From the NCBI GenBank assembly GCA_965214605.1, contig OZ243961.1, positions 3,648,001 through 3,712,000 of the forward strand: a stretch of DNA of 64,000 nucleotides, written 5' to 3'. A program made the position numbers and the translations under genes. Position 1 is the stretch's first letter; each line of letters opens with the position of its first letter. Positions 3,405 through 53,866 of this stretch are shown piece by piece. The DNA is from an uncultured Candidatus Binatia bacterium (GTDB taxonomy: Bacteria > Desulfobacterota > Binatia > Bin18). The notes beneath the pieces were generated by a model. The model had not been told where the DNA came from. It searched no databases and saw nothing but the letters and a program-made list of their open reading frames with translations.

Positions 3405-3491
3405 AGTCGGTCTGTGTGTCTAGCATACTGTCAGCGTCGCGTCCGCCCCGCTTGACTCTGTGCCCGGCCTCGGATAGAGGAGAGAGCACGT

Positions 3492-3675
3492 CTGCTTCAG
3501 GTGCCCATTCAGGGTAAAAACGGGAAGCCAGTGAGAAGCTGGCGCGGTCCCGCCACTGTGATGGGGAAGCGGGTCTCGACAATGCCACTGCCGGTCAGAC
3601 ACCGGTGGGAAGGCCGGGACAAGCGCCGGGGCGCATGCCCCCGCACCCCTCAGCCAGGAAACCTGCCTGAAGCCC
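3492..3675 (+). ncRNA. Cobalamin (B12) riboswitch upstream of btuB
   Basis: Hallmark elements in order: GGTGC, AAACGGGAAGCCAGTGAGAAGCTGGCGCGGTCCCGCCACTGTGA, GCCACTG, GGGAAGGC, B12-box CAGCCAGGAAACCTGCC; sits 5' of a TonB receptor/ABC operon. Confidence 0.93.
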
Positions 3676-3824
3676 TAAACCAGCCTCTCCGCGGAGAGAG
3701 AAAGGTTGCCGTATGATGATTTTGCCCACCCGCGTACCGACATTTGGCCCTTTTTGCGCGGTTCTCTGTCAGCATACACCTGCTCCTGTCTGCTCTCCGC
3801 TGTTGGCTTCCTCGAGGAGGGAAG

Positions 3825-41687: not shown

Positions 41688-43007
41688 ATGAACGATACCA
41701 TTCTAGTGGTTGATGATGAGGAAAAGATTCGGACGACCTTACGCGGGATTCTGAGCGATGAGGGATTCCAGGTCTTGGACACCGGAGACAGTGCCCAAGT
41801 CCTCGATCTAATCCGCACCCGCCAACCCCGGCTGGTCATTCTTGATATTTGGATGCCGCAGCTCGACGGCATTAGCCTGCTCGAACAACTCAAAGCCCAG
41901 CAACCGAAACTACCGGTCATTGTCATTTCCGGCCACGGCACAATTGAGACAGCGGTCCGGGCGACCAAGCTGGGAGCGACTGATTTTATTGAGAAACCGT
42001 TTTCGCTCGAAGCCCTCCTCCGCTCGGTGTATCGGGCGATTGGACGCGAGGCGGCTGACCACACCGCCCAAGGAGGACATCGCGCTTCGCCGCCCAACCG
42101 TCAGGCTGTAGTGGGGCCGCGCGAGTGTGTCCAGGCTCAGACAATTGGACGCAGCGTTGTGCTGCGTGGTCAGGGATTGCACTCTGGCGTGCGCACTGGG
42201 GTGATCCTGCAACCGCTGCCACCCGGCAGTGGAATCGTGTTCGGATCCCTATCGACCGGTGTGGTAATTCCGGCCTCAGTCGACTATATCAGCTCGACCG
42301 GCTATGCGACGAGTTTGTACCGGGACGGCGCTATGGCCCGTACGATTGAACATCTCATGGCGGCCCTGCACGGCTACGGTATCACTAATCTGATGATCAA
42401 GATGCAGGATGAAATCCCGATTCTGGACGGATCGGCGCGCGAGTTTTGTCAGGTACTTGACGAAGCCGGGATTGTCGAGCAGGACGAGACAGTTGAGCTC
42501 ATTACGGTCGATCGGCCGTATCAGGTGGGCGACGGAGGGGGTGACAAGGAGCTGCGCATTGAGCCGGCCGATCATTTTTCGGTCCGCTATATTCTGGACT
42601 ATCCCCCACCGGTCGGTCGTCAGGAACACTGCTATGTGCATCGGGGAGCCGAGAGCTTTGGCGCCGAAATTGCCCCGGCCCGAACCTTTGGCTTTTTGAA
42701 AGAGGTCCAAGCGCTGGAGCAGATGGGCCTGGCCAACGGTGGACGGCTTGACAACTGTATTTTGATAGGCGATCAGGGCGTGATTAATCCACCTCTGCGT
42801 TTTGATGACGAACTCGCCCGCCACAAAGTCTTGGATCTGGTCGGTGATCTGTACCTGTTAGGGCGACCGTTACGGGGGAAAGTGACGGCTAATCGGACCG
42901 GTCACAGCGATAATGTTGCCCTAGTCCGGGCCTTACGGCTGGGATTGCAAGCCAAAAAGCTCGGGGGAGAGCATTTGTCTATGAGAGGTGTGGAAAAACA
43001 GCTATGA
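41688..43007 (+). CDS. lpxC: Receiver (NtrX-like) domain fused to UDP-3-O-acyl-GlcNAc deacetylase LpxC
   Basis: REC: VVDDE, LDIWMP, ISGHG, FIEKP; LpxC: GLHSG, TIEHLMAAL, PILDGSA, ARTFGF, RHKVLDLVGDL, TGH; one uninterrupted ORF. Confidence 0.92.
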   Translation: MNDTILVVDDEEKIRTTLRGILSDEGFQVLDTGDSAQVLDLIRTRQPRLVILDIWMPQLDGISLLEQLKAQQPKLPVIVISGHGTIETAVRATKLGATDFIEKPFSLEALLRSVYRAIGREAADHTAQGGHRASPPNRQAVVGPRECVQAQTIGRSVVLRGQGLHSGVRTGVILQPLPPGSGIVFGSLSTGVVIPASVDYISSTGYATSLYRDGAMARTIEHLMAALHGYGITNLMIKMQDEIPILDGSAREFCQVLDEAGIVEQDETVELITVDRPYQVGDGGGDKELRIEPADHFSVRYILDYPPPVGRQEHCYVHRGAESFGAEIAPARTFGFLKEVQALEQMGLANGGRLDNCILIGDQGVINPPLRFDDELARHKVLDLVGDLYLLGRPLRGKVTANRTGHSDNVALVRALRLGLQAKKLGGEHLSMRGVEKQL

Positions 43008-47017: not shown

Positions 47018-48154
47018 CTAACTGAAGCGCGGCATGACTTTTTCGGCAAAGATCTCAAAACTGCGCAACACCATATCATGGGGTAAAAGGCCGTCGCCAA
47101 TTAAGAAGAACATTTCGTCGGTACCAATTTTTGCCGCCAGCTCGATTTTCCGTGACACACTGTCCGCGTCACCGATCAGCGGCTCTGCCACACCTAGCCC
47201 GAACGGAATGCCCCATTTTTCCCAGAACCAGCGGGTATCTTTGAGGGCGCGCTCGGTGTGCTCTGCGTTGTCCGTCACCACCAGCTGTCCTCCTAGGGCG
47301 AGTTCGGTGCCGGGAGTGACGGTGCGACCCGCCTTATCAGCCTCCTCACGATAGATGCTCTGCAGTCGAGCGCACAGTTCTTCGTGCAAGAGAATAATAA
47401 TCGGTTTGCCGCCCTCGCGGGCCCAGTAGCGAATCGACTCGGTATTATGGGTAAAACCGGCGTACAGTGGGGGATAGGGCTTTTGGTAGGGACGCGGAGC
47501 AATACCGACCTGTTCGATGATCATATCTTGTGTTACCCCGGCGCCGTACTGGCTATAGGCCTCCATAGGATGGGGATTCCTGGCCCCCTGAGGCGGGAAC
47601 TGCCAAAACTCTCCCCGGTGGCAGAAGGTGTCGTGCGTCCAGGCTTTCTTAATAATCTCCACGCCTTCTTCAAACACTCGTCGGTTGAGCAGATCAGAGG
47701 CCTGTTTTTTATTCCAGTGTCCGACCGCCTCGACGCCGGGCCGGGTGGCATAGTTCTGGACCCAGCGCGCCTGATAACCGCGTACGAAGGCGACGTTGAG
47801 TCGACCTTGGAGCATATGATCCATCATTGCCACATCCTCGGCCACCCGTAGTGGATTATGGGTGTTGAGCACATAGCCCAGCACGTCTACGCGTAAACGC
47901 TCGGAATGCTGGCCGATGAACATACTCAGCAGACCGGGGCTGCCGGTCGCTTCCATCCCCTCGATCTGTAAGTGATGCTCGGGATGGCCAAAGCCGGCAA
48001 AGCCGGCCTGGTCACAGAACTGGACGTAGTCCTTGAGATTGGTCAGCATGCGCTGATACAGAACCGGATTTTTTCCGGCCATACCGACCTCCAGCTCTTT
48101 ACGGGTTCCAACTGTACCATACGCAATAGCGTGAAATTTCATCATGTTCCTCAA
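47018..48154 (-). CDS. LLM-class (luciferase-like) flavin-dependent oxidoreductase
   Basis: HPEHH, NPLRVAEDVAMMDHMLQGRL, PRPYQKPYPP, FAEKVMPRF. Confidence 0.88.
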   Translation of the reverse strand: MRNMMKFHAIAYGTVGTRKELEVGMAGKNPVLYQRMLTNLKDYVQFCDQAGFAGFGHPEHHLQIEGMEATGSPGLLSMFIGQHSERLRVDVLGYVLNTHNPLRVAEDVAMMDHMLQGRLNVAFVRGYQARWVQNYATRPGVEAVGHWNKKQASDLLNRRVFEEGVEIIKKAWTHDTFCHRGEFWQFPPQGARNPHPMEAYSQYGAGVTQDMIIEQVGIAPRPYQKPYPPLYAGFTHNTESIRYWAREGGKPIIILLHEELCARLQSIYREEADKAGRTVTPGTELALGGQLVVTDNAEHTERALKDTRWFWEKWGIPFGLGVAEPLIGDADSVSRKIELAAKIGTDEMFFLIGDGLLPHDMVLRSFEIFAEKVMPRFS

Positions 48155-48359
48155 GAATAGTCGCTAGCGCCTCAGCTAAATTCTCGCGTGCAGTGTTCTT
48201 GGTTTTGTCCGGCCTGTTTGCTCCGGGAAGTGCAGGGCAGTATACCATTCCTCGCCCTACTCGATAATCGTACCGATCTCATTTTTTCTCGTAGCAATCT
48301 CCTAAACCAGAGCGCTGAGACGGCCTTTCCCTCATCTGCACGGAGAATCGATCCCGGTC

Positions 48360-48739
48360 TTCCCCTGGAAGCCGTGCCACTGCTCTCGAAGCGCATACGG
48401 TTATATGTGTCTCTGACACCGACCACGTCAGAGATATGGATAATCGTCTCGAACGCTTCTCGCTGGACGAAGAAGCAGCGGGCCTCTCCGTCGCGCCGCC
48501 GTCGGTCTGCTCCGGCAAGTCGGGTTCCCCGGACCTGTCAGTTGAGCGGGCTGTGACTTGCCGGGCTTGTGCCCGCATTGGTCGCTCTCAAGGAACGTCT
48601 GGTGCCAAAGCTCGGGCCCTCACTGGCGGCATCAGCTTCTCGACACTCCTCTCCCGCGGAGCCTCATCCGCCGAGAACCAGCGAAGCTCCAGGTAATCGT
48701 AGAGGGGGGAGAAGCGGGGGAGTCGGGATGGAGCGCCGT
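48360..48739 (-). pseudogene. N-terminal remnant of a type III-like restriction (Res) helicase gene
   Basis: Frameshifted fragments (ACG)ALHPDSPASP / LRWFSADEAPRERSVEKLMPP / EPDLPEQTDG / FFVQREAFETII..DVVGVRDTYNRMRFESSG recall the N-terminus of Res-type DEAD helicases; recognised from memory. Confidence 0.6.
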
Positions 48740-48740
48740 G

Positions 48741-49277
48741 TCAGCGGCTCAACAACCGCTTGTTCGCCGTTAGTATAGATATTCCTTGTCCGTCGAAATC
48801 GCCGTCATCGGTGATCAGCTTTAAGCCCCGGCTGTTACACAGCTCCCGAATAACTTGGTCATTAAAGTCAGCGCGCCCCTCTGTGTACTCGCTCATCAAG
48901 CCAGCTACGTTCAACATTTCAAAGCAGTTTTCAATCCGCGCACAATGGCGCAGCACTCGCTTGATGTTGTCGGCTATTTCTTGAGCGATCGGCTTGAAGC
49001 CTGGGCTGTTGCGGAACTCCTTGAACTTCTTCGTGGAGGCAACGAGCCGCCACTGCTGTCGGGTATAAGCGTTAATAAATTCCGAGACGACGAGGACATC
49101 GATGTAGATATGGCTGCCCGCTTCCAGGATGCGACGAAACGCTGAGGAATACGTGGACATTTTGGGGTTGGTGGGGCGCTGTGGGCCGTAGATAAACAAC
49201 CAGATATTGGCGTCCAGAAATAATTCATCGTCAGACGTGAACTTGTAACCTCCGACATGCGCAACGTCATGCGTCAT
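48741..49277 (-). CDS. PIN-domain (VapC-like) ribonuclease
   Basis: Acidic active-site pattern FLDANIW, VSEF, DFND, ITDDGDF; ATG 49277 overlaps the upstream gene end. Confidence 0.85.
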   Translation of the reverse strand: MTHDVAHVGGYKFTSDDELFLDANIWLFIYGPQRPTNPKMSTYSSAFRRILEAGSHIYIDVLVVSEFINAYTRQQWRLVASTKKFKEFRNSPGFKPIAQEIADNIKRVLRHCARIENCFEMLNVAGLMSEYTEGRADFNDQVIRELCNSRGLKLITDDGDFDGQGISILTANKRLLSR

Positions 49278-49632
49278 CGCCGTTGTCCTCAAGCACTTCC
49301 CGCACCGCGTTATCGAATCTCTCCGGGTCTTGAAAGTATCGCTTGGCTGTCTCGACAACCCGCCTTAACAGGACGACATCATCAGATTCCATGTCTTCTA
49401 CCTTCAGCAAGGTGCGAATCTTATTTTCGTCGAATTCACTGTATAATTGACCGATCGCCGTGTTGAGAAATGCCGACGTCAGTGTGGACACGTTCCGGAA
49501 CGAGAGCGAGACGCGCCGGTTCTGTCTCAGTACAGCGACGATGCGATCGTATACTTTTTGTCCGTCGCTCGACGCGACGCATAAGGGGCTGCCGACGATC
49601 CCGAATATGGATATCGCAATGTCTGTGCTCAT
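49267..49632 (-). CDS. STAS-like (DUF4325-type) protein
   Basis: ~120 aa; DGQKVY, VSLSFRNVSTLTSAFLNTAIGQL with candidate phospho-Ser. Confidence 0.82.
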   Translation of the reverse strand: MSTDIAISIFGIVGSPLCVASSDGQKVYDRIVAVLRQNRRVSLSFRNVSTLTSAFLNTAIGQLYSEFDENKIRTLLKVEDMESDDVVLLRRVVETAKRYFQDPERFDNAVREVLEDNGDDA

Positions 49633-49639
49633 AGGGGCC

Positions 49640-50512
49640 TTAGAAGATTTCGTGGTCTTCGGGTTCTGAAGCGAGTCTGTAGGAGCTATAGTCTGCGGTA
49701 TTGATTTCCATGCTGACGACCGTCCCTGGAAACGGTTGGTCCAGTGGAGACGTATCAATCCCCTTGTCTTTTCGCTGCCAATACCCAGCATCAGACACTA
49801 TCTGAATATGGCCCCCATTCAAATCAATAAACTCACTCAGCAGTGTCAACCCCAGTCCGCCGGGAATTGTACCGCGCTTGGTCGTATTGTGCTCCCGAGT
49901 GGCCCAGATGATAGCGTCCATCGGAGACAGATTTTTCTGAAGATGGTCGCAGACATTTTTTCGTATGCCGACCCCTAAATCGGCCACGGTAAAATTAAGT
50001 CTGTTCCTGGTAGGAAAAAACTGTCCACAACTAAAAATTCCCAACTCAGTACGGGAGTGCAGCACGGCGTTGCTGAATATCTCGAAAACACTCTCGCGAA
50101 GTTTTTTCAACAGTCCCGGCGACATTGCTGGCATTTCGGGATGGCTGATAAACTCCCGCTCAATATAGTCGGAGAAATATCGGTCGTCTTCAACATCAAA
50201 TCGTTGGTAAGGAATAGTCGTTCCCCAGCGGTCGGGGATGTTCGTCCGACCGTAGTGGCTCAGAAAACCGTTTTTCGACAGGATGCTTTCAACAGCTGGG
50301 GGGAGATTGACCAAATTGACGGTGTTCAGATTGTCTCCCAAGCAATACAGAATTGCGCCGAACGCCGCGCACCTGTCGGCGTCAAGCCAACTCGTTTCCC
50401 TCATGTCAATTTCGACGTCCTCAAAGACACACTGTTTAGTTTGAGAGTGGAAGAGTGCCAAAGCTGCGAAACCTTTGAGGCCGTGGTAAATCGTCGGGAG
50501 AGGAACTCTCAT
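49640..50512 (-). CDS. Anti-sigma-kinase-like HATPase protein with N-terminal STAS-like region
   Basis: N box EIFSNAVLH, G1 DLGVGI, G2 GGLGL, PGT; no HisKA H-box or TM. Confidence 0.82.
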   Translation of the reverse strand: MRVPLPTIYHGLKGFAALALFHSQTKQCVFEDVEIDMRETSWLDADRCAAFGAILYCLGDNLNTVNLVNLPPAVESILSKNGFLSHYGRTNIPDRWGTTIPYQRFDVEDDRYFSDYIEREFISHPEMPAMSPGLLKKLRESVFEIFSNAVLHSRTELGIFSCGQFFPTRNRLNFTVADLGVGIRKNVCDHLQKNLSPMDAIIWATREHNTTKRGTIPGGLGLTLLSEFIDLNGGHIQIVSDAGYWQRKDKGIDTSPLDQPFPGTVVSMEINTADYSSYRLASEPEDHEIF

Positions 50513-50655
50513 ACCGTTACCTCCACATGCGTCATGGCGTCGTTACTGAAAAGGTTCACAACTTTGACGGCAATCTTATACCGTCCCGGCGGGCGGTCCA
50601 CATTTCCGGCTGAAGGAGCGTCCTCATCCAAGAAGTTGAATGTCCCAACCCAGAA
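50509..50655 (-). pseudogene. C-terminal remnant of a Mod-like DNA methyltransferase gene
   Basis: Open frame FWVGTFNFLDEDAPSAGNVDRPPGRYKIAVKVVNLFSNDAMTHVEVTV* resembles the KIAVKVVDIFGND C-terminus of type III-like MTases; TGA overlaps the HATPase ATG (ATGA). Confidence 0.6.
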
Positions 50656-50865
50656 TTATAAAAGGCAATCTGATCGTTAGCTCGAACAACGCTCCTACAC
50701 TCCGTTTGTGTTATTTTTCCCGTGGTCGTTTCTCTACGCCATCGTAACAAACGGTTGGACTCGGACTCATACTGGTTCCTCACGAGCTCTTGAAAGGCCG
50801 CTTGACGATTAATTCTCATGACACAGAGACAAAGCCTCGGTCCCTGCTATAGGTGAGTATTCCCC

Positions 50866-51168
50866 CTAAAACGGCAAAAACCTCCGAAATAGACGGTCGT
50901 CGTCTTTGGGCAGACTACGCTCTTCCTCATCGTCCTCGTCTGAGGAGGCAAAGGGATTGAGGCGGGCAAACAGGCCCGGCTTGACGATCACATCCCCCTC
51001 TCGGGGTTCCACATCTTCAGGGCCGGCATAGACAGGCATCTCTGAATGAACGTTCTCTTCAATGTAACGCTTCCCAATGAAATGGTCTTCATTCTGGCTG
51101 CCAAAAGGCCACAGCGAACATGCGCTCAGCGTTACACACCACACCAAGCCTAGGAACACATGTCTCAT
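50866..51168 (-). CDS. Small hypothetical lipoprotein
   Basis: Lipobox LSAC after hydrophobic stretch; ATG 51168 downstream of the vWA gene. Confidence 0.65.
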   Translation of the reverse strand: MRHVFLGLVWCVTLSACSLWPFGSQNEDHFIGKRYIEENVHSEMPVYAGPEDVEPREGDVIVKPGLFARLNPFASSDEDDEEERSLPKDDDRLFRRFLPF

Positions 51169-51202
51169 CGCTTTCTTTGATCCTCTTCTCGGCTCGGGTG
51201 GC

Positions 51203-53866
51203 CTATTCGGCCAGGGGTCCGAACAAGGTGCGCAGACTGATATCTCCGAGCAACAGGAAGACGGCGGCAATAATCATGATATTCTCCATTGGATGCAGCT
51301 GCTTGCGTTTGCCTTCCCGCTTTTGGGCAACTAGCTCTTGGGGGTTGGGGTTGAGCTTCCCACCGCTCCCCTCGGCTAGGGCACGTAGCAGGTCGCGGTT
51401 GGGATGCTGCTGGCGGTACTCGTCGAGCGAGGCGTCGGCCGTCCGGCTGACCATCACGGTTTGGGTCTTTTGGTTGGCGACTTTGCCGTCTTTACGTTTG
51501 ATAATCGTGACCGGAAAACTCCCCTGTTGCCGACGTGCCATGACCGCTTCATACACCCGCGGGGCGACCGGCATGAGGGTGATGAGATCACTGGTCGAGC
51601 CCCGGGGCAGGCGAGCCTGCAAAATGCCGCTCTGGTCGCTGTCGTACGACTCAACCCGCAGCACGGTCCGGTTGCGCCGCTGCGGCATGCTGATCCGATA
51701 CTCCGAGGTGGTTTCGTCTCGCATCGACCAACGTGCGGCCTGCGACCAGAACTTGCCGAAACCCGGCCAGCGGATCCAGTCGCCCGCTCCGCTCCCGCTA
51801 GGGTCAAAGGTGACGGCCACGACCTTGCCAAGCCCGTACTGCCAGGTGGCCAGAATCGGATCGCGTTCGTCCTTGACGTCGGTATAGAGCTGGACTTTTG
51901 CCCCTTTCTTGGGGTTTGTGAGCATATATTCGTCAAGGTCGGGAAAGTCGTTCAAGCCGCGTAGAATCTGGCCGCGGATCCCGACTAGGGGATGGATCTC
52001 TTTGGGGTCCTGATCCTCCTCATCTTCCTCGTCATGCTCGCCAATGGTCTGCTTGGTGTCTTTGACCAGCAGTTGGGGAAGCTTTGCCGCATCATAGACG
52101 TGATAAAAACGCCCCTTGGTTTTTTCGGACATATAGGACAACAGCCGAAGATTGATGGTATCCGCCCCAATCCGGATCGTGGTAATCGAGATCTGACGCT
52201 GGGTAATCAGATTGACCAAGGGGTAATGGTCCCTTGGGTCGCGGTTGGTGTCCCCGTCGGTCAGTAAAATAATGTGTCGGATTGCCCGGCGGGTCCGCCC
52301 TAGCTGGTCGGCCGCCGTTTCTAGGGCTCTGAAAAAGTCGGTTCCACCTCCGTACTGTAGACGTTGGATTTTGTCGTTCAGCTCGTCTCGATTGTGGGAC
52401 AAAAGCTTCAGCGGGGACAGGGTGTAAGCTTCTGAATCAAAGGCGACCGCCCCGGCCAAGTCGTCATCCTTGAGCTGGCGCAGTACTGCGAGTGCCGCCT
52501 CTTGCGCGTAGTGCATTTTCTGGCCGTCGTGCAGTCCCCGGACTTTGCTGTTGTAGCCCATGCTGTTGGAGCGGTCGATGATAAGGAAGAGCGCAATCGG
52601 GATACGTTTCTTTTTGAGCTTTTTGGGTTTGGGCGGCGGTTGCTCCTGAAAGGTGACAGGTAAAATCCGCTCAACCGGCGTATCTCTAAAGGCTAGGTCG
52701 CCAAAAGAGCGGGTACCACCGGCCATCAGAAAGCCGCCGCCAAAATCGCGCACATAGTGCTCAATGGCGCGCATCTGTCGGTTGGTGATACCGCCCCGAC
52801 CGATATCGTCAAACACCAGACAGTGGTAATCGAGCAAATCTGATAGCTTGGTTGGTAAGCCCTCGGGGCGACGAAACTCAATGTCGACTTCCTTGAGTTG
52901 AAGCGCACGGGCCAGATGGGTACGCGGGTTGTCGGTAATGACCAGCGCGCGGACCTTGCCCGAGACGACCAGAGTGGCATGTTGGCGGTTATTGCCGGTC
53001 ACGGTATCCGGCTCGGCCGCGATCTCAGCCCGCAGCAGATAGTTGCCGGGTTGCATGATCTGGGCCGGGATTTCAAAAACCGACAGGCCGGGACTGAGCT
53101 GCACCGGCTGGCTGGTCAGCCGATCCTTGTTAGCGTGGATCATCACCTGGCCCTTGACCGCTTGCTCATTCCCGTTGCGGATGACTAAGCGCAGGGTAAA
53201 CACGCTGCCCTCGCGGGCCAGGGGCGGAGTGACGAATTTCTCCAGAGAGATTTCGGGTTGTTGGCCCGAGGGCGGGATGACTGGGAAAATGCTCACCCCC
53301 ATTTGGCGCGCCAGAGCTAGATGTTGGCGGGCCGAGCCGGTCGTCTCGTTGCCGTCAGTCATCAGCAGCAGGCGTTTTTGAGCCTGTTCTGGGTAGAGGG
53401 CAAACACCCGCTCCAGGGCTTCGGCAATATTGGTCCCACCACCAGGGTGCGCTTCGTCCGGGTCGACAGCCACACTGACCGAGGTCGGGGGGCCGGGCGG
53501 TATGAGCAGGGTGGTGTCGCTGGCAAACGACAGCGCGGAAAACTCCTCTTCGTCGGTCAAATAGCCGCGCAGCTGGGCTAGGTAATCATTCATCCACTGA
53601 CGGCTCTCCCGCGAGATGCTGTCGGATGTATCAAGCGCGGCAACAAGGGCAAGCTGATGCTCAGACAGGGTGGTCTGTAGGTTGAGGCCGGCCAAGGCAG
53701 CGACTAGGGCGACCACCGCCAGGGTCCGTAGGACAACGGCGCTGAACAACACGCCCCGTCCGCGCTGCCAGAAGAGGGGGAGCCACAGCAGTGGAATCAG
53801 GACCAACAGCCAGAACCAGCTCGGGTCAAGGAAGACATAGCTGCGTCCAAAGAGATCGTAGGTCAT
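51203..53866 (-). CDS. Large membrane-anchored protein with two vWA domains and a GATase-like domain
   Basis: MIDAS-like DTSDS/TDGNET and DRSNS/TDGDT; GGGFLMAGG; ATWQYGLGKV; terminal TM segments. Confidence 0.88.
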   Translation of the reverse strand: MTYDLFGRSYVFLDPSWFWLLVLIPLLWLPLFWQRGRGVLFSAVVLRTLAVVALVAALAGLNLQTTLSEHQLALVAALDTSDSISRESRQWMNDYLAQLRGYLTDEEEFSALSFASDTTLLIPPGPPTSVSVAVDPDEAHPGGGTNIAEALERVFALYPEQAQKRLLLMTDGNETTGSARQHLALARQMGVSIFPVIPPSGQQPEISLEKFVTPPLAREGSVFTLRLVIRNGNEQAVKGQVMIHANKDRLTSQPVQLSPGLSVFEIPAQIMQPGNYLLRAEIAAEPDTVTGNNRQHATLVVSGKVRALVITDNPRTHLARALQLKEVDIEFRRPEGLPTKLSDLLDYHCLVFDDIGRGGITNRQMRAIEHYVRDFGGGFLMAGGTRSFGDLAFRDTPVERILPVTFQEQPPPKPKKLKKKRIPIALFLIIDRSNSMGYNSKVRGLHDGQKMHYAQEAALAVLRQLKDDDLAGAVAFDSEAYTLSPLKLLSHNRDELNDKIQRLQYGGGTDFFRALETAADQLGRTRRAIRHIILLTDGDTNRDPRDHYPLVNLITQRQISITTIRIGADTINLRLLSYMSEKTKGRFYHVYDAAKLPQLLVKDTKQTIGEHDEEDEEDQDPKEIHPLVGIRGQILRGLNDFPDLDEYMLTNPKKGAKVQLYTDVKDERDPILATWQYGLGKVVAVTFDPSGSGAGDWIRWPGFGKFWSQAARWSMRDETTSEYRISMPQRRNRTVLRVESYDSDQSGILQARLPRGSTSDLITLMPVAPRVYEAVMARRQQGSFPVTIIKRKDGKVANQKTQTVMVSRTADASLDEYRQQHPNRDLLRALAEGSGGKLNPNPQELVAQKREGKRKQLHPMENIMIIAAVFLLLGDISLRTLFGPLAE

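What the first reader, a model, noticed from the sequence alone, without database searches (positions are those of the whole stretch)
48741..50512. Intact HATPase kinase / STAS / PIN three-gene cassette: candidate kinase-gated toxin or anti-phage system
Seen: three tightly coupled genes (7-bp gap, 11-bp overlap) with lower GC than the flanks (line 49981-50040 is 24/60 GC by hand count). They encode a soluble GHKL ATPase without an H-box, a STAS-like protein with a Ser in TSAFL, and a PIN nuclease with intact acidic residues. Established: RsbW/SpoIIAB kinases phosphorylate a Ser on STAS partners; VapC/PIN proteins are toxic RNases. Inference: partner switching releases the PIN toxin from a STAS antitoxin upon stress or infection. 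From memory, kinase/STAS pairs (CapK/CapS-like) linked to VapC have been reported, so novelty may be partial and needs checking.
Basis: partly seen in the sequence, partly recalled or inferred. Interest (0 to 1): 0.8.

Follow-up and report, generated by a model that had tools for sequence, protein, structure and literature searches.

The report
Kinase-gated VapKSC toxin cassette, restriction-operon relic

Summary
Three coupled minus-strand genes (7-nt gap, 11-nt overlap, GC 0.51 against about 0.58 in the flanks) encode a STAS+GHKL kinase, a STAS-like DUF4325 protein and a PIN nuclease.

VapS binds and inhibits VapC. VapK phosphorylates a conserved VapS serine and releases the RNase. The proposed trigger is single-stranded DNA.

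Membership holds at sequence level:
- The only solved-structure relatives of genes 2 and 3 are Escherichia VapS and VapC (PDB 9z7o).
- VapS S53 aligns with the phospho-site S48, and VapC D22 with catalytic D28.
- Homologues 63-69% identical to the kinase come from genomes listed in the paper's dataset.
- The trio is co-conserved in 79 of 80 related loci.

The new part is context. The cassette sits between an about 58-residue tail of a Type III mod gene and a frameshifted head of res. In 45 of 80 related loci the same mod/res family flanks vapKSC, and 12 of those are intact mod-vapKSC-res operons. Species of the same genus carry other defence cargo at this site.

Verdict: a new member of a known system. 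Nesting of defence genes inside defence operons is itself a known pattern.

The parts
49640..50512 (-). vapK: 290-aa kinase with an N-terminal STAS domain (about residues 1-90) and a C-terminal GHKL/Bergerat ATP-binding domain (about residues 96-275).
   Evidence: Pfam HATPase_c 26.4 bits over residues 136-242. AF2 model, mean pLDDT 73.7. VIA-align: residues 1-90 match STAS domains (3mgl_A Z 9.5, rmsd 2.0, 86 aligned; RsbV 6m36_B Z 8.9); residues 96-275 match SpoIIAB 1l0o_A (Z 8.8, rmsd 3.4, 131 aligned). N148, D178, G180 and G218-L222 are invariant in 81 of 81 clade rows.
49267..49632 (-). vapS: 121-aa STAS-like antitoxin (Pfam DUF4325) with C-terminal helices. Predicted phospho-acceptor is S53.
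   Evidence: DUF4325 64.5 bits. phmmer hit to PDB 9z7o_A 'Escherichia VapS', E 1.4e-15, with S53 aligned to the serine that corresponds to S48. S53 is Ser in 79 and Thr in 1 of 80 rows; T52 is invariant in 80 of 80. AF2 model, mean pLDDT 82.5, with helices at 83-101 and 103-116. Residues 1-97 match STAS folds (SLC26A11 9iar_B Z 8.3; RsbV Z 7.5).
48741..49277 (-). vapC: 178-aa PIN-domain nuclease, the toxin/effector.
   Evidence: Pfam PIN 33.1 bits. Its only PDB sequence hit is 9z7o_C 'Escherichia VapC', E 2.1e-7, with D22 aligned to catalytic D28. D22, E66 and D160 are conserved in 75 of 76 rows; D137 and D158 in 76 of 76.
50512..50652 (-). Remnant of the 3' end of a Type III R-M methyltransferase gene (mod), last about 58 codons. 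Its TGA stop overlaps the vapK ATG (ATGA).
   Evidence: tblastn of the 741-aa Mod of a same-genus genome (L093:957-3182; PADLOC MTase_III 363 bits): residues 684-741 match, 47% identity, E 1.5e-6 (alignment). Junction sequence read.
48361..48736 (-). Frameshifted remnant of the 5' end of the Type III restriction gene (res), starting directly after the vapC stop codon.
   Evidence: tblastn of the 896-aa Res of the same relative (L093:4948-7638; PADLOC REase_III, Pfam ResIII): residues 4-17, 20-88 and 26-129 match in different frames with in-frame stops, best E 1.8e-13. The same stretch matches same-genus genomes at DNA level.

Best explanation
This is an intact VapKSC module, a kinase-gated type II-like toxin-antitoxin and abortive-infection system.

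Proposed mechanism, with the basis for each step:
- VapC, a PIN RNase, is held inactive in a complex with VapS. VapS binds through the STAS face that carries S53 and lays its C-terminal helices towards the VapC active site. Shown for the Escherichia homologues; only predicted for this copy.
- VapK (STAS+GHKL) is switched on by single-stranded DNA made during DNA damage or phage infection. Proposed in the paper from an AlphaFold model and one point mutant; not shown biochemically for any VapK.
- Active VapK phosphorylates VapS S53. Inferred.
- Phospho-VapS leaves VapC, and the free nuclease arrests growth and blocks phage. Shown for the Escherichia system by a phosphomimetic mutant and plaque assays; inferred here.

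In this genome the cassette is what remains of a five-gene mod-vapK-vapS-vapC-res unit. The Type III restriction-modification genes have decayed to stubs on both sides while the toxin-antitoxin core stayed whole.
For: Domain content.

Sequence homology to the only experimentally characterised system: VapS hits 9z7o_A at E 1.4e-15 and VapC hits 9z7o_C at E 2.1e-7. These are the sole VapC hit and the top VapS hit in the PDB. S53 aligns with S48 and D22 with D28.

Four relatives at 63-69% identity to VapK come from genomes that Dataset EV3 of the paper lists as vapKSC carriers: L012 Nitrosomonas nitrosa Nm90, L074 Zetaproteobacteria CG_4_9_14_3_um_filter_49_83, L016 DeMMO2_3 and P0030 Nitrotoga AM1P.

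Co-conservation in 80 loci from many phyla: vapS adjacent in 80 of 80, vapC in 79 of 80. The one miss is a contig that ends 33 nt after vapS. The 11-nt vapS/vapC overlap is kept in 48 of 77 loci and the 10-nt vapK-vapS gap in 42 of 76.

Catalytic and phospho-site residues are conserved.

VapS-VapC complex prediction: score 0.89, best of 3 controls 0.00. That mark was reached by 116 of 157 solved complexes and 2 of 215 mismatched pairs. The runs agree in at least 79% of contacts and partner pLDDT is at least 87. VapS 52-55, including S53, touches VapC 28-31 and 40-48, and the VapS C-terminal residues 84-114 also contact VapC. A like complex (9z7o) is solved, so this pass may reflect likeness rather than independent evidence.

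Mobility and defence context: a true VapK homologue was found in 1 of 40 relatives and 0 of 7 same-genus genomes. The same chromosomal site holds other defence cargo in 4 of 5 same-genus genomes examined.

Published function of the family (PMC13373217 section 13): VapC is toxic, VapS rescues, S48E abolishes rescue and binding, and the operon gives about 2-log protection against phage Bas42.
Against: Nothing has been measured for this copy.

No RNA-holding sequencing run was available, so expression is unknown.

With mod reduced to a stub, the operon's original promoter is probably gone, and the sigma-70 consensus scan found 0 promoter-like sites in 48100-51300 (2.3 expected by shuffling). That scan may not fit this organism.

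The HATPase_c score sits exactly on Pfam's cut-off.

VapK activation by ssDNA is unproven even in the reference system, where VapK was insoluble.

The Phe reported as the ssDNA contact (Escherichia F54) could not be mapped with certainty. P0001 F51 is Leu in 93 of 119 family rows. The better candidate is W42, aromatic in 110 of 119.

PADLOC v2.0.0 has no model for any of the three proteins.

No other defence gene lies within 10 kb in this window.
Confidence: 0.82

Rival explanations
1. Restriction-coupled second line. In this clade vapKSC is not an autonomous toxin-antitoxin. It would be the abortive-infection arm of a composite five-gene Type III R-M operon, firing when restriction is under way or is overwhelmed or inhibited, for example on ssDNA or degradation products made by Res. 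In this window, with mod and res dead, it would be an orphan that responds only to general DNA damage or acts as an addictive relic.
For: The mod C-terminus abuts vapK (within 15 nt) in 40 of 80 loci. Full mod lies upstream in 21 of 80, full res downstream in 17, both in 12, and any trace in 45.

In the intact example L003, the mod stop overlaps the vapK start by 4 nt and res starts 4 nt after vapC. The window keeps both junctions.

Among the 35 loci without this R-M family, R-M genes of other types lie directly upstream in the same orientation in 3 (Type I in L052 and L076, Type IIG in L063).

For CapKS, the paper itself proposes coordination between R-M and later-acting systems. PrrC embedded in a Type IC R-M locus is a precedent for an RNase guarded by an R-M system (PMC12707154 passage).
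Against: The Escherichia operon protected against phage as a three-gene unit. The Deinococcus plasmid copy has no flanking R-M. 35 of 80 loci show no trace of this R-M family.

The mod-res gap of this R-M family also takes unrelated cargo: an ABC-type ATPase pair, a DinD-like gene and a P-loop protein. That argues for a permissive insertion slot rather than a dedicated partnership. vapKSC often outlives the R-M genes.
Confidence: 0.3
2. Silent relic. The cassette is an unexpressed leftover of a decayed defence island and no longer does anything in this cell.
For: Both flanking R-M genes are reduced to stubs. No promoter-like site was found upstream. The closest relative, L002, is in a similar decayed state.
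Against: All three ORFs are full length, with every conserved catalytic and phospho-site residue intact and the coupling distances kept. An unneutralised or half-decayed toxin-antitoxin pair is usually lost quickly. The cassette is co-directional with the upstream Bat/MoxR operon and lipoprotein gene, so read-through transcription is possible.
Confidence: 0.1
3. Classical partner-switching regulator. An RsbW/RsbV-like kinase/antagonist pair controls transcription, and the PIN gene is only a neighbour.
For: The kinase's closest folds include SpoIIAB, and the STAS folds include RsbV and SpoIIAA.
Against: There is no sigma factor gene in or beside the cassette. The PIN gene overlaps the STAS gene by 11 nt and is co-conserved in 79 of 80 loci. 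VapS has no DNA-binding domain. Direct VapS-VapC binding is solved for homologues and predicted here.
Confidence: 0.03

Closest known systems
VapKSC of Escherichia sp. E4736 (Chambers, Rani, Min, Villa, Corbett, EMBO J 2026, PMC13373217; PDB 9z7o)
   Same: Same three genes in the same order. VapK is STAS+GHKL, VapS is STAS plus a C-terminal helix with a conserved Ser, and VapC is a PIN nuclease. The phospho-site (S53 = S48) and catalytic Asp (D22 = D28) align. The predicted VapS-VapC interface buries the Ser, as in the crystal structure.
   Different: It is distant in sequence: about 36% identity for VapS by my count on the printed alignment, and VapC matches only at E 2e-7. It belongs to an environmental clade whose VapK is unusually conserved (58-82% identity across many phyla). 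In 45 of 80 loci of that clade the cassette is flanked by one Type III mod/res family, a context not mentioned in the paper's main text or Dataset EV3. Here that R-M is decayed.
CapK/CapS transcriptional controllers of immune operons (same paper)
   Same: A homologous kinase-substrate pair with the same proposed ssDNA trigger and the same Ser-phosphorylation logic.
   Different: CapK has an N-terminal HTH and CapS a C-terminal winged HTH, and CapS acts as a DNA-binding repressor. P0001 starts directly with the STAS domain, and P0002 has no HTH. The output here is release of a nuclease, not de-repression.
SpoIIAB/SpoIIAA and RsbW/RsbV partner-switching modules
   Same: A GHKL Ser kinase phosphorylates a STAS protein at the start of helix 2. 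They are the closest solved folds.
   Different: There is no sigma factor and no PP2C phosphatase in the locus. The kinase carries its own non-phosphorylatable STAS domain (Ala at the Ser position, 'DADR/DADM'). The STAS protein sequesters a toxin, not the kinase.
Canonical VapBC toxin-antitoxin pairs; group PIN.4 of Matelska et al. 2017 (PMC5499597)
   Same: A PIN/VapC-type toxin is neutralised by a small protein encoded just upstream with an overlapping reading frame. [quoted passage not shown]
   Different: The antitoxin is a STAS domain, not an AbrB, RHH or Phd-type DNA-binding VapB. Release is by phosphorylation rather than proteolysis. In the solved homologue the antitoxin does not displace the active-site Mg2+.
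Defence genes embedded in defence operons: PrrC in the EcoprrI Type IC R-M locus (PMC12707154) and 'guilt-by-embedding' (Payne et al. 2024, bioRxiv 10.1101/2024.01.29.577857)
   Same: A latent RNase module sits between the genes of a restriction system, and the same slot takes alternative cargo in relatives.
   Different: The host is a Type III mod/res pair. The passages I read of the preprint name Hma, BREX, DISARM and Type I R-M as hosts and contain no mention of STAS, HATPase or DUF4325. Unlike PrrC, VapC has its own dedicated antitoxin and kinase.

Membership tests
VapKSC | Three-gene operon in the order kinase - STAS protein - PIN protein, tightly coupled | tested here: met
   7-nt gap and 11-nt overlap. 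The same order occurs in 76 of 80 related loci, and 4 have S-C-K. Modal spacings are kept.
VapKSC | VapK = STAS domain + GHKL kinase domain, with no HTH | tested here: met
   VIA-align on the AF2 model: residues 1-90 are STAS (Z 9.5-8.6 for the best rows) and residues 96-275 match SpoIIAB or histidine-kinase catalytic domains (Z 8.8-8.4). Pfam HATPase_c sits at the cut-off.
VapKSC | Conserved Asn of the kinase active site (CapK N218 in the paper) | tested here: met
   N148, in the ExxxNAxxH N-box, is invariant in 81 of 81 clade rows and 119 of 119 family rows. Equivalence to N218 is inferred from the motif, not from an alignment to CapK.
VapKSC | Conserved aromatic residue at the predicted ssDNA site (Escherichia VapK F54 = CapK W68) | tested here: inconclusive
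   The Escherichia VapK sequence was not obtainable with the tools. The candidate is W42 (W81/F26/Y3 of 119 rows). F51 is Leu in 93 of 119 rows.
VapKSC | VapS = STAS domain plus a short C-terminal helical region, homologous to crystallised VapS | tested here: met
   9z7o_A hit at E 1.4e-15 over residues 9-117. DUF4325 64.5 bits. The model shows a STAS core plus helices 83-101 and 103-116.
VapKSC | Absolutely conserved Ser/Thr in the VapS STAS domain (S48) | tested here: met
   S53 aligns with the Ser of the Escherichia chain, given the 18-residue offset of the 134-residue chain against the 116-residue protein. It is Ser in 79 and Thr in 1 of 80 rows.
VapKSC | VapC PIN domain with the catalytic Asp (D28) and the other acidic residues | tested here: met
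   D22 aligns with D28. D22, E66, D137, D140 and D158 are invariant in the 61-row alignment A3.
VapKSC | VapS binds VapC through the face that carries the phospho-site | tested here: met
   This is a prediction only. Score 0.89, best of 3 controls 0.00. The mark was reached by 116 of 157 solved and 2 of 215 mismatched pairs. Runs agree in at least 79% of contacts and partner pLDDT is at least 87. S53 is among the lowest-error contacts. A like complex is solved, so the pass may come from likeness.
VapKSC | VapC toxicity, rescue by VapS, loss of rescue in the phosphomimetic, phage protection, activation by DNA damage | not testable with these tools
   Bench assays. Published for Escherichia sp. 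E4736 only.
CapK/CapS regulators | HTH on the kinase and a winged HTH on the STAS protein, which acts as a DNA-binding repressor | tested here: not met
   No HTH family hit in P0001 or P0002. The STAS fold begins at residue 1 of P0001. P0002 is 121 aa with only helices after the STAS core.
Canonical VapBC | VapB-type antitoxin with a DNA-binding domain (AbrB, RHH, Phd or MerR type) | tested here: not met
   The upstream gene is DUF4325/STAS. No VapB-like ORF lies in 48100-51300.
Sigma-factor partner-switching (RsbW/RsbV, SpoIIAB/SpoIIAA) | A cognate sigma factor sequestered by the kinase, plus a PP2C phosphatase | tested here: not met
   Neither is encoded in the cassette or among the 17 neighbouring ORFs scanned in 38.2-61.5 kb. 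The rest of the genome was not searched.
Type III restriction-modification (context) | Intact Mod methyltransferase and Res helicase-nuclease | tested here: not met
   In the window only Mod residues 684-741 and Res residues 4-129 survive, the latter frameshifted. Both genes are intact in relatives such as L003.
Embedded defence systems | Cargo lodged between the genes of a host defence operon, with alternative cargo in related operons | tested here: met
   12 of 80 loci have full mod and full res on either side, and 45 of 80 have some trace. The same Res family is found with no insert (6 loci), with a 0.7-0.9 kb insert (4 loci), with vapKSC (1 locus) or with an ATPase pair.

The most novel reading that the evidence does not exclude
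In this environmental VapK clade the ancestral unit would be a single five-gene, translationally coupled operon, mod-vapK-vapS-vapC-res. The nesting would be functional, not just physical: Type III restriction (or its blockade by a phage) generates the single-stranded DNA that fires VapK, so restriction and VapC-mediated growth arrest form one wired two-layer defence. The toxin-antitoxin core then outlives the R-M genes as an addictive relic, which is the state seen in this window.

The physical nesting and the repeated decay are shown here. The functional wiring is conjecture.
Probability: 0.3. Interest if true: 0.55.

Novelty: new member of a known kind. Interest (0 to 1): 0.3.

Why it matters
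For the finding itself: it is a correct call of a real defence/toxin-antitoxin system, but that system was described and mechanistically dissected in 2026. The window adds one more member, from a lineage (nearest loci are labelled Candidatus Binatia) that is absent from the paper's supplementary files (0 occurrences of 'Binatia').

Three smaller gains:
- VapS is Pfam DUF4325, and VapC fits the 2017 'PIN.4' group. This gives a ready handle for annotation pipelines, which still name these genes 'ATP-binding protein', 'STAS-like' and 'PIN domain' and which PADLOC v2.0.0 does not detect.
- A large clade of vapKSC travels inside one Type III R-M family. This gives natural intact five-gene operons in which the idea that restriction feeds a DNA-damage-sensing kinase could be tested directly.
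- The locus is a defence hotspot within this genus, and it shows the order of decay: R-M first, toxin-antitoxin last.

Tried and rejected
**Searches that found nothing or little**
- The first genome-contig scan, with the single protein, found no relative. The second, with alignment A1, gave 80 loci.
- PADLOC gave only weak partial hits: DrmA at E 4.6e-4 for the ATPase part and a DRT-associated model at E 1.3e-3 for VapS. I do not read either as membership.
- NCBIfam gave only sub-threshold histidine-kinase hits.
- The first literature search was swamped because 'stas' matched 'stasis'.
- Foldseek against the PDB gave only generic GHKL hits for VapK (best E 4.8e-4) and nothing at E <= 0.001 for VapS. 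VIA-align was needed to see the STAS folds.
- There are no tRNA genes in the window, and Rfam found only a cobalamin riboswitch far away, so there is no tRNA-linked island boundary.
- Earlier-findings look-ups by sequence and by place returned nothing.

**Expression**
- No RNA holder was listed for the stretch. Contigs cannot show transcripts.

**Mapping Escherichia VapK F54**
- I could not obtain that sequence. The E. coli collection takes DNA queries only. The plasmid search gave a Deinococcus copy at 32% identity, and the phage search gave three distant VapK-like genes.

**Ideas considered and dropped**
- That the 1,772-bp cassette and the 1,774-bp ATPase+small-gene insert of relative G007 are related because they are the same size. 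They share no detectable similarity, so the match in length is taken as coincidence.
- That 'A' after the vapK start codon in 79 of 80 loci is a fossil of the overlapping mod stop. It could equally reflect a preference for Lys/Arg/Asn as the second residue, so it is not used as evidence.
- That the 87-aa ORF at 50556-50819 is a fourth gene. It has no family hit and overlaps the mod remnant.

**Tool trouble**
- The careful tree did not finish in 300 s, so only the quick tree is reported.
Full report
**What is there**

Three minus-strand ORFs fill 48741-50512: 290 aa (49640-50512), 121 aa (49267-49632) and 178 aa (48741-49277). They are separated by a 7-nt gap and an 11-nt overlap.

The cassette is at 0.511 GC, against 0.580 and 0.575 for 4 kb on either side (profile).

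Pfam gives HATPase_c (26.4 bits, exactly the cut-off, with no HisKA), DUF4325 'STAS-like' (64.5 bits) and PIN (33.1 bits). PADLOC v2.0.0 and NCBIfam give nothing meaningful.

**Is the trio real?**

The kinase has 1361 homologues at E <= 0.001 among 3017 candidates. The best 120 are all 66-82% identical and nearly all 290 aa long, although they come from very different bacteria.

A pattern scan of one genome per species, using alignment A1, found 166 relatives. The best 80 loci (58-76% identity) were kept. In these:
- A VapS homologue is adjacent in 80 of 80.
- A VapC homologue is adjacent in 79 of 80. The miss, L052, is a contig that ends 33 nt after vapS. L050 and L014 hold only part of vapC.
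- The order is K-S-C in 76 and S-C-K in 4 (L033, L036, L040, L077).
- The 11-nt vapS/vapC overlap recurs in 48 of 77 loci, and a 10-nt vapK-vapS gap in 42 of 76.

Contigs of a run from a different study bridge both outer junctions in the window (47800-48825 and 50107-51223), so the arrangement is not an assembly artefact.

**What it is**

A literature search led to Chambers et al., EMBO J 2026 (PMC13373217). I read the abstract, sections 7, 11, 12, 13 and 14, passages found by term, part 1 of 3 of Dataset EV3, and term searches over the 11 text-held supplementary files. The Appendix PDFs could not be read.

The paper defines CapK/CapS, and also a related three-gene toxin-antitoxin operon, vapKSC:
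- VapK is STAS+GHKL.
- VapS is a STAS domain plus a short C-terminal region, with an absolutely conserved Ser/Thr (S48).
- VapC is a PIN nuclease (catalytic D28).

For the Escherichia sp. E4736 operon the authors report:
- a VapS2VapC2 crystal structure with S48 buried in the interface;
- VapC toxicity that is lost in D28A;
- rescue by VapS, but not by VapS S48E or a C-terminal deletion;
- about 2-log protection against phage Bas42, lost in VapC D28A, VapS S48A and VapK F54A.

Activation of VapK by ssDNA is proposed from an AlphaFold 3 model. It could not be tested because VapK was insoluble.

**Membership**

Against all PDB sequences, P0002 hits 9z7o_A 'Escherichia VapS' at E 1.4e-15. P0003's only hit is 9z7o_C 'Escherichia VapC' at E 2.1e-7.

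In those alignments S53 pairs with the serine that is S48 once the 18-residue offset of the deposited chain is removed. D22 pairs with residue 28.

Residue conservation across the clade:
- S53 is Ser in 79 and Thr in 1 of 80 VapS rows.
- T52 is invariant.
- VapC D22, E66 and D160 are kept in 75 of 76 rows, and D137 and D158 in 76 of 76.
- Rows dropped before these counts: L029 VapS; L078 and L080 VapC, which had a stop in my ORF call; and L014, L059 and L052 VapC, which were incomplete.

An AF2 model of the kinase (mean pLDDT 73.7) matches STAS domains over residues 1-90 (3mgl_A Z 9.5; RsbV 6m36_B Z 8.9). Over residues 96-275 it matches SpoIIAB (1l0o_A Z 8.8) and histidine-kinase catalytic domains. 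The N-box Asn (N148) and the G1 and G2 boxes are invariant in 81 of 81 clade rows and at least 90% conserved in 119 diverse family rows.

The VapS model (mean pLDDT 82.5) is a STAS core plus two C-terminal helices.

A VapC+VapS complex prediction scored 0.89, with a best control of 0.00 among 3. That mark was reached by 116 of 157 solved complexes and 2 of 215 mismatched pairs. The runs agree in at least 79% of contacts and partner pLDDT is at least 87. VapS 52-55 lies against VapC 28-31 and 40-48, and the VapS C-terminal helices also lie on VapC. Because a like complex is solved, this shows likeness rather than independent proof.

Four relatives at 63-69% identity to the kinase come from genomes that Dataset EV3 lists as vapKSC carriers: Nitrosomonas nitrosa Nm90 (L012), a Zetaproteobacteria MAG (L074), DeMMO2_3 (L016) and Nitrotoga AM1P (P0030).

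One feature stays open. The Phe said to contact ssDNA (F54) could not be mapped, because I could not obtain the Escherichia VapK sequence. P0001 W42 is aromatic in 110 of 119 family rows and is the likely equivalent. F51 is Leu in 93 of 119.

The module is not a CapK/CapS regulator, since neither protein has an HTH. It is not a canonical VapBC pair, since there is no VapB. It is not a sigma-factor switch, since no sigma factor or PP2C phosphatase lies in the cassette or among the 17 neighbouring ORFs scanned.

**Earlier hints in print**

'DUF4325' occurs in only three papers of the library. One is the 2017 PIN classification, whose table lists a VapC group 'PIN.4 ... [quoted passage not shown] Another lists a 293-aa hypothetical protein followed by a 112-aa DUF4325 protein beside the repressor of a Francisella prophage (one table passage).

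'VapKSC' occurs only in the EMBO paper and its preprint.

**Context: the part that is not in the paper**

The neighbours in the window are housekeeping genes. On one side are RuvB, a PAS histidine kinase, a receiver-LpxC fusion, an M48 peptidase, a CitMHS transporter and a luciferase-like oxidoreductase. On the other is a Bat/MoxR-VWA operon. There is no PADLOC hit beyond generic P-loop matches.

A full-length VapK was found in only 1 of 40 relatives (G014, 73% identity) and in 0 of 7 genomes of the same genus. The other nine 'matches' are weak hits to histidine-kinase ATPase domains.

All five same-genus genomes examined keep both flanks but differ in between:
- G007 has, at exactly this site, a Type III Mod (741 aa, PADLOC MTase_III 363 bits), an AAA_15/21 ATPase (NsnB/PDC-M55A-like), a small protein and a Type III Res (896 aa).
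- G006 has a decayed version of the same set.
- G004 has the ATPase pair alone.
- G005 has a PDC-M47/PD-T4-4 pair.
- G002 has 11.7 kb of mostly metabolic genes.

Searching the window with G007's Mod and Res shows two remnants. Window 50652-50512 encodes the last 58 residues of Mod (47% identity, E 1.5e-6), ending in a TGA that overlaps the vapK ATG. Window 48736-48361, starting right after the vapC stop, encodes Res residues 4-129 in shifted frames with stops (best E 1.8e-13). So the 'non-coding' DNA on both sides of the cassette is the wreck of a Type III R-M operon that once enclosed it.

This is general for the clade. Among the 80 loci:
- A Mod C-terminus abuts vapK (within 15 nt) in 40.
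- Full-length mod (at least 90% coverage) lies upstream in 21, a remnant in 24, nothing in 35.
- Full res lies downstream in 17 and a partial res in 10.
- Both are full in 12, and there is some trace in 45.
- Of the 56 loci with enough flank to judge, 12 have both full, 33 have some trace and 23 have none.

In the intact example L003, the mod stop overlaps the vapK start by 4 nt and res starts 4 nt after vapC.

On a quick VapK tree the R-M-flanked rows (46 of 81) are spread over the whole tree. The label needs 14 changes, of which at least 6 are forced by supported branches. The window groups with three Binatia-labelled loci at 97% support. The tree is unrooted, so gains and losses cannot be told apart.

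Among the 35 loci without this R-M family I scanned 118 neighbouring ORFs. Other R-M genes lie directly upstream in the same orientation in L052 and L076 (Type I) and L063 (Type IIG). Several other loci have AbiEii, Hhe/PDC-S37, IetA, MzaA, TIR or mad3 neighbours.

The same Res family was found in 33 of 401 sampled genomes of the phylum. Loci with Res at 50% identity or more show mod directly abutting res (6), a 0.7-0.9 kb insert (4; a P-loop protein plus a 74-aa ORF in L098, a DinD-like gene in L103), vapKSC (1), or an unresolved state.

The VapKSC paper's main text has 0 occurrences of 'Type III', and its supplementary files have 0 of 'RM_type_III'. N. nitrosa Nm90, which carries full mod and res around vapKSC (L012), is annotated there only with 'PDC-S01'.

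**How new is the nesting?**

Not very. Defence genes embedded in defence operons are a described pattern. PrrC sits inside a Type IC R-M locus (PMC12707154, passages). 'Guilt-by-embedding' was described by Payne et al. in a 2024 preprint. In the passages I read, its named hosts were Hma, BREX, DISARM and Type I R-M, and it contains no mention of STAS, HATPase or DUF4325.

Earlier notes of this scan report other cargo between Type III mod and res in other genomes. Those are unchecked AI notes, but I independently saw DinD-like, AlbA_2-like and PDC-M47 cargo in this R-M family.

What is specific here is that vapKSC is one such cargo, that a whole conserved clade of it travels this way, and that the toxin-antitoxin core repeatedly outlives the R-M genes.

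**Mechanism and odds**

I put about 0.9 on membership in VapKSC and about 0.8 on the published mechanism applying to this copy.

What is shown elsewhere: VapS-VapC binding, the Ser switch, toxicity and phage protection. What is inferred here: all of these for this copy. What is unproven anywhere: ssDNA activation of VapK.

Points against: no expression data; no promoter-like site upstream now that mod is gone; and the R-M partner is dead.

Functional coupling to restriction is the boldest reading the data allow, at about 0.3.

**Verdict**

A correct and careful first-stage call of a real system, but one that was already published. It is a new member of a known kind, with a modestly informative genomic context.

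Noticed in passing
window 48155-51270; loci L093-L097 (same-genus genomes G007, G006, G004, G005, G002): The site between the Bat/MoxR-VWA operon and the CitMHS/luciferase-like genes is a defence hotspot in this genus. Three relatives carry an NsnB/PDC-M55A-like AAA_15/21 ATPase plus a roughly 145-aa partner, with an intact, decayed or absent Type III R-M around it. One carries PDC-M47/PD-T4-4, and one carries 11.7 kb of mostly metabolic genes plus a HipA_2-like kinase.
   Followed up: partly
L098:763-1498, L103:637-1497, L109:33-1397: The same Type III Res family carries other inserts directly upstream of res: a P-loop (zeta-toxin-like by eye) protein plus a 74-aa ORF, a DinD-like 286-aa protein, and a 454-aa protein that looks AlbA_2/HATPase_c_4-like by eye. 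None was scanned against family libraries.
   Followed up: no
L033, L036, L040, L077: Four Thermodesulfobacteriota loci have the permuted gene order vapS-vapC-vapK, form one supported clade on the VapK tree, and show no trace of the Type III R-M family.
   Followed up: no
L022 vs L024; L015 vs L016: VapK proteins are identical or nearly identical in MAGs labelled as different phyla (Sumerlaeota vs 'Deltaproteobacteria'; 'Deltaproteobacteria' vs Thermodesulfovibrionia). This means either very recent transfer or mis-binned contigs.
   Followed up: no
window 41688-43007 (+): A single ORF combines a response-regulator receiver domain (108.5 bits) with a full LpxC deacetylase domain (281.5 bits), directly downstream of a PAS/HAMP histidine kinase. 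This is an unusual fusion for the committed step of lipid A synthesis.
   Followed up: no
window 3482-3684 (+): Cobalamin riboswitch, 101.8 bits. It is the only Rfam hit in the window.
   Followed up: no
window 50556-50819 (-) and 50866-51270 (-): The 87-aa ORF has no family hit and overlaps the mod remnant, so it is probably spurious. The 134-aa ORF probably starts at an internal Met followed by a signal-peptide-like stretch and a Cys (lipoprotein-like by eye), and it is conserved next to the VWA gene in same-genus genomes.
   Followed up: partly
phage records MK448860.1 (2384-3127) and MT837343.1 (4778-5593): VapK-like genes at 26-40% identity occur in a Streptococcus prophage and in an unannotated 7-kb phage contig. 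A Francisella prophage lists a 293-aa hypothetical protein plus a DUF4325 pair beside its repressor. Phage-borne relatives therefore exist.
   Followed up: no
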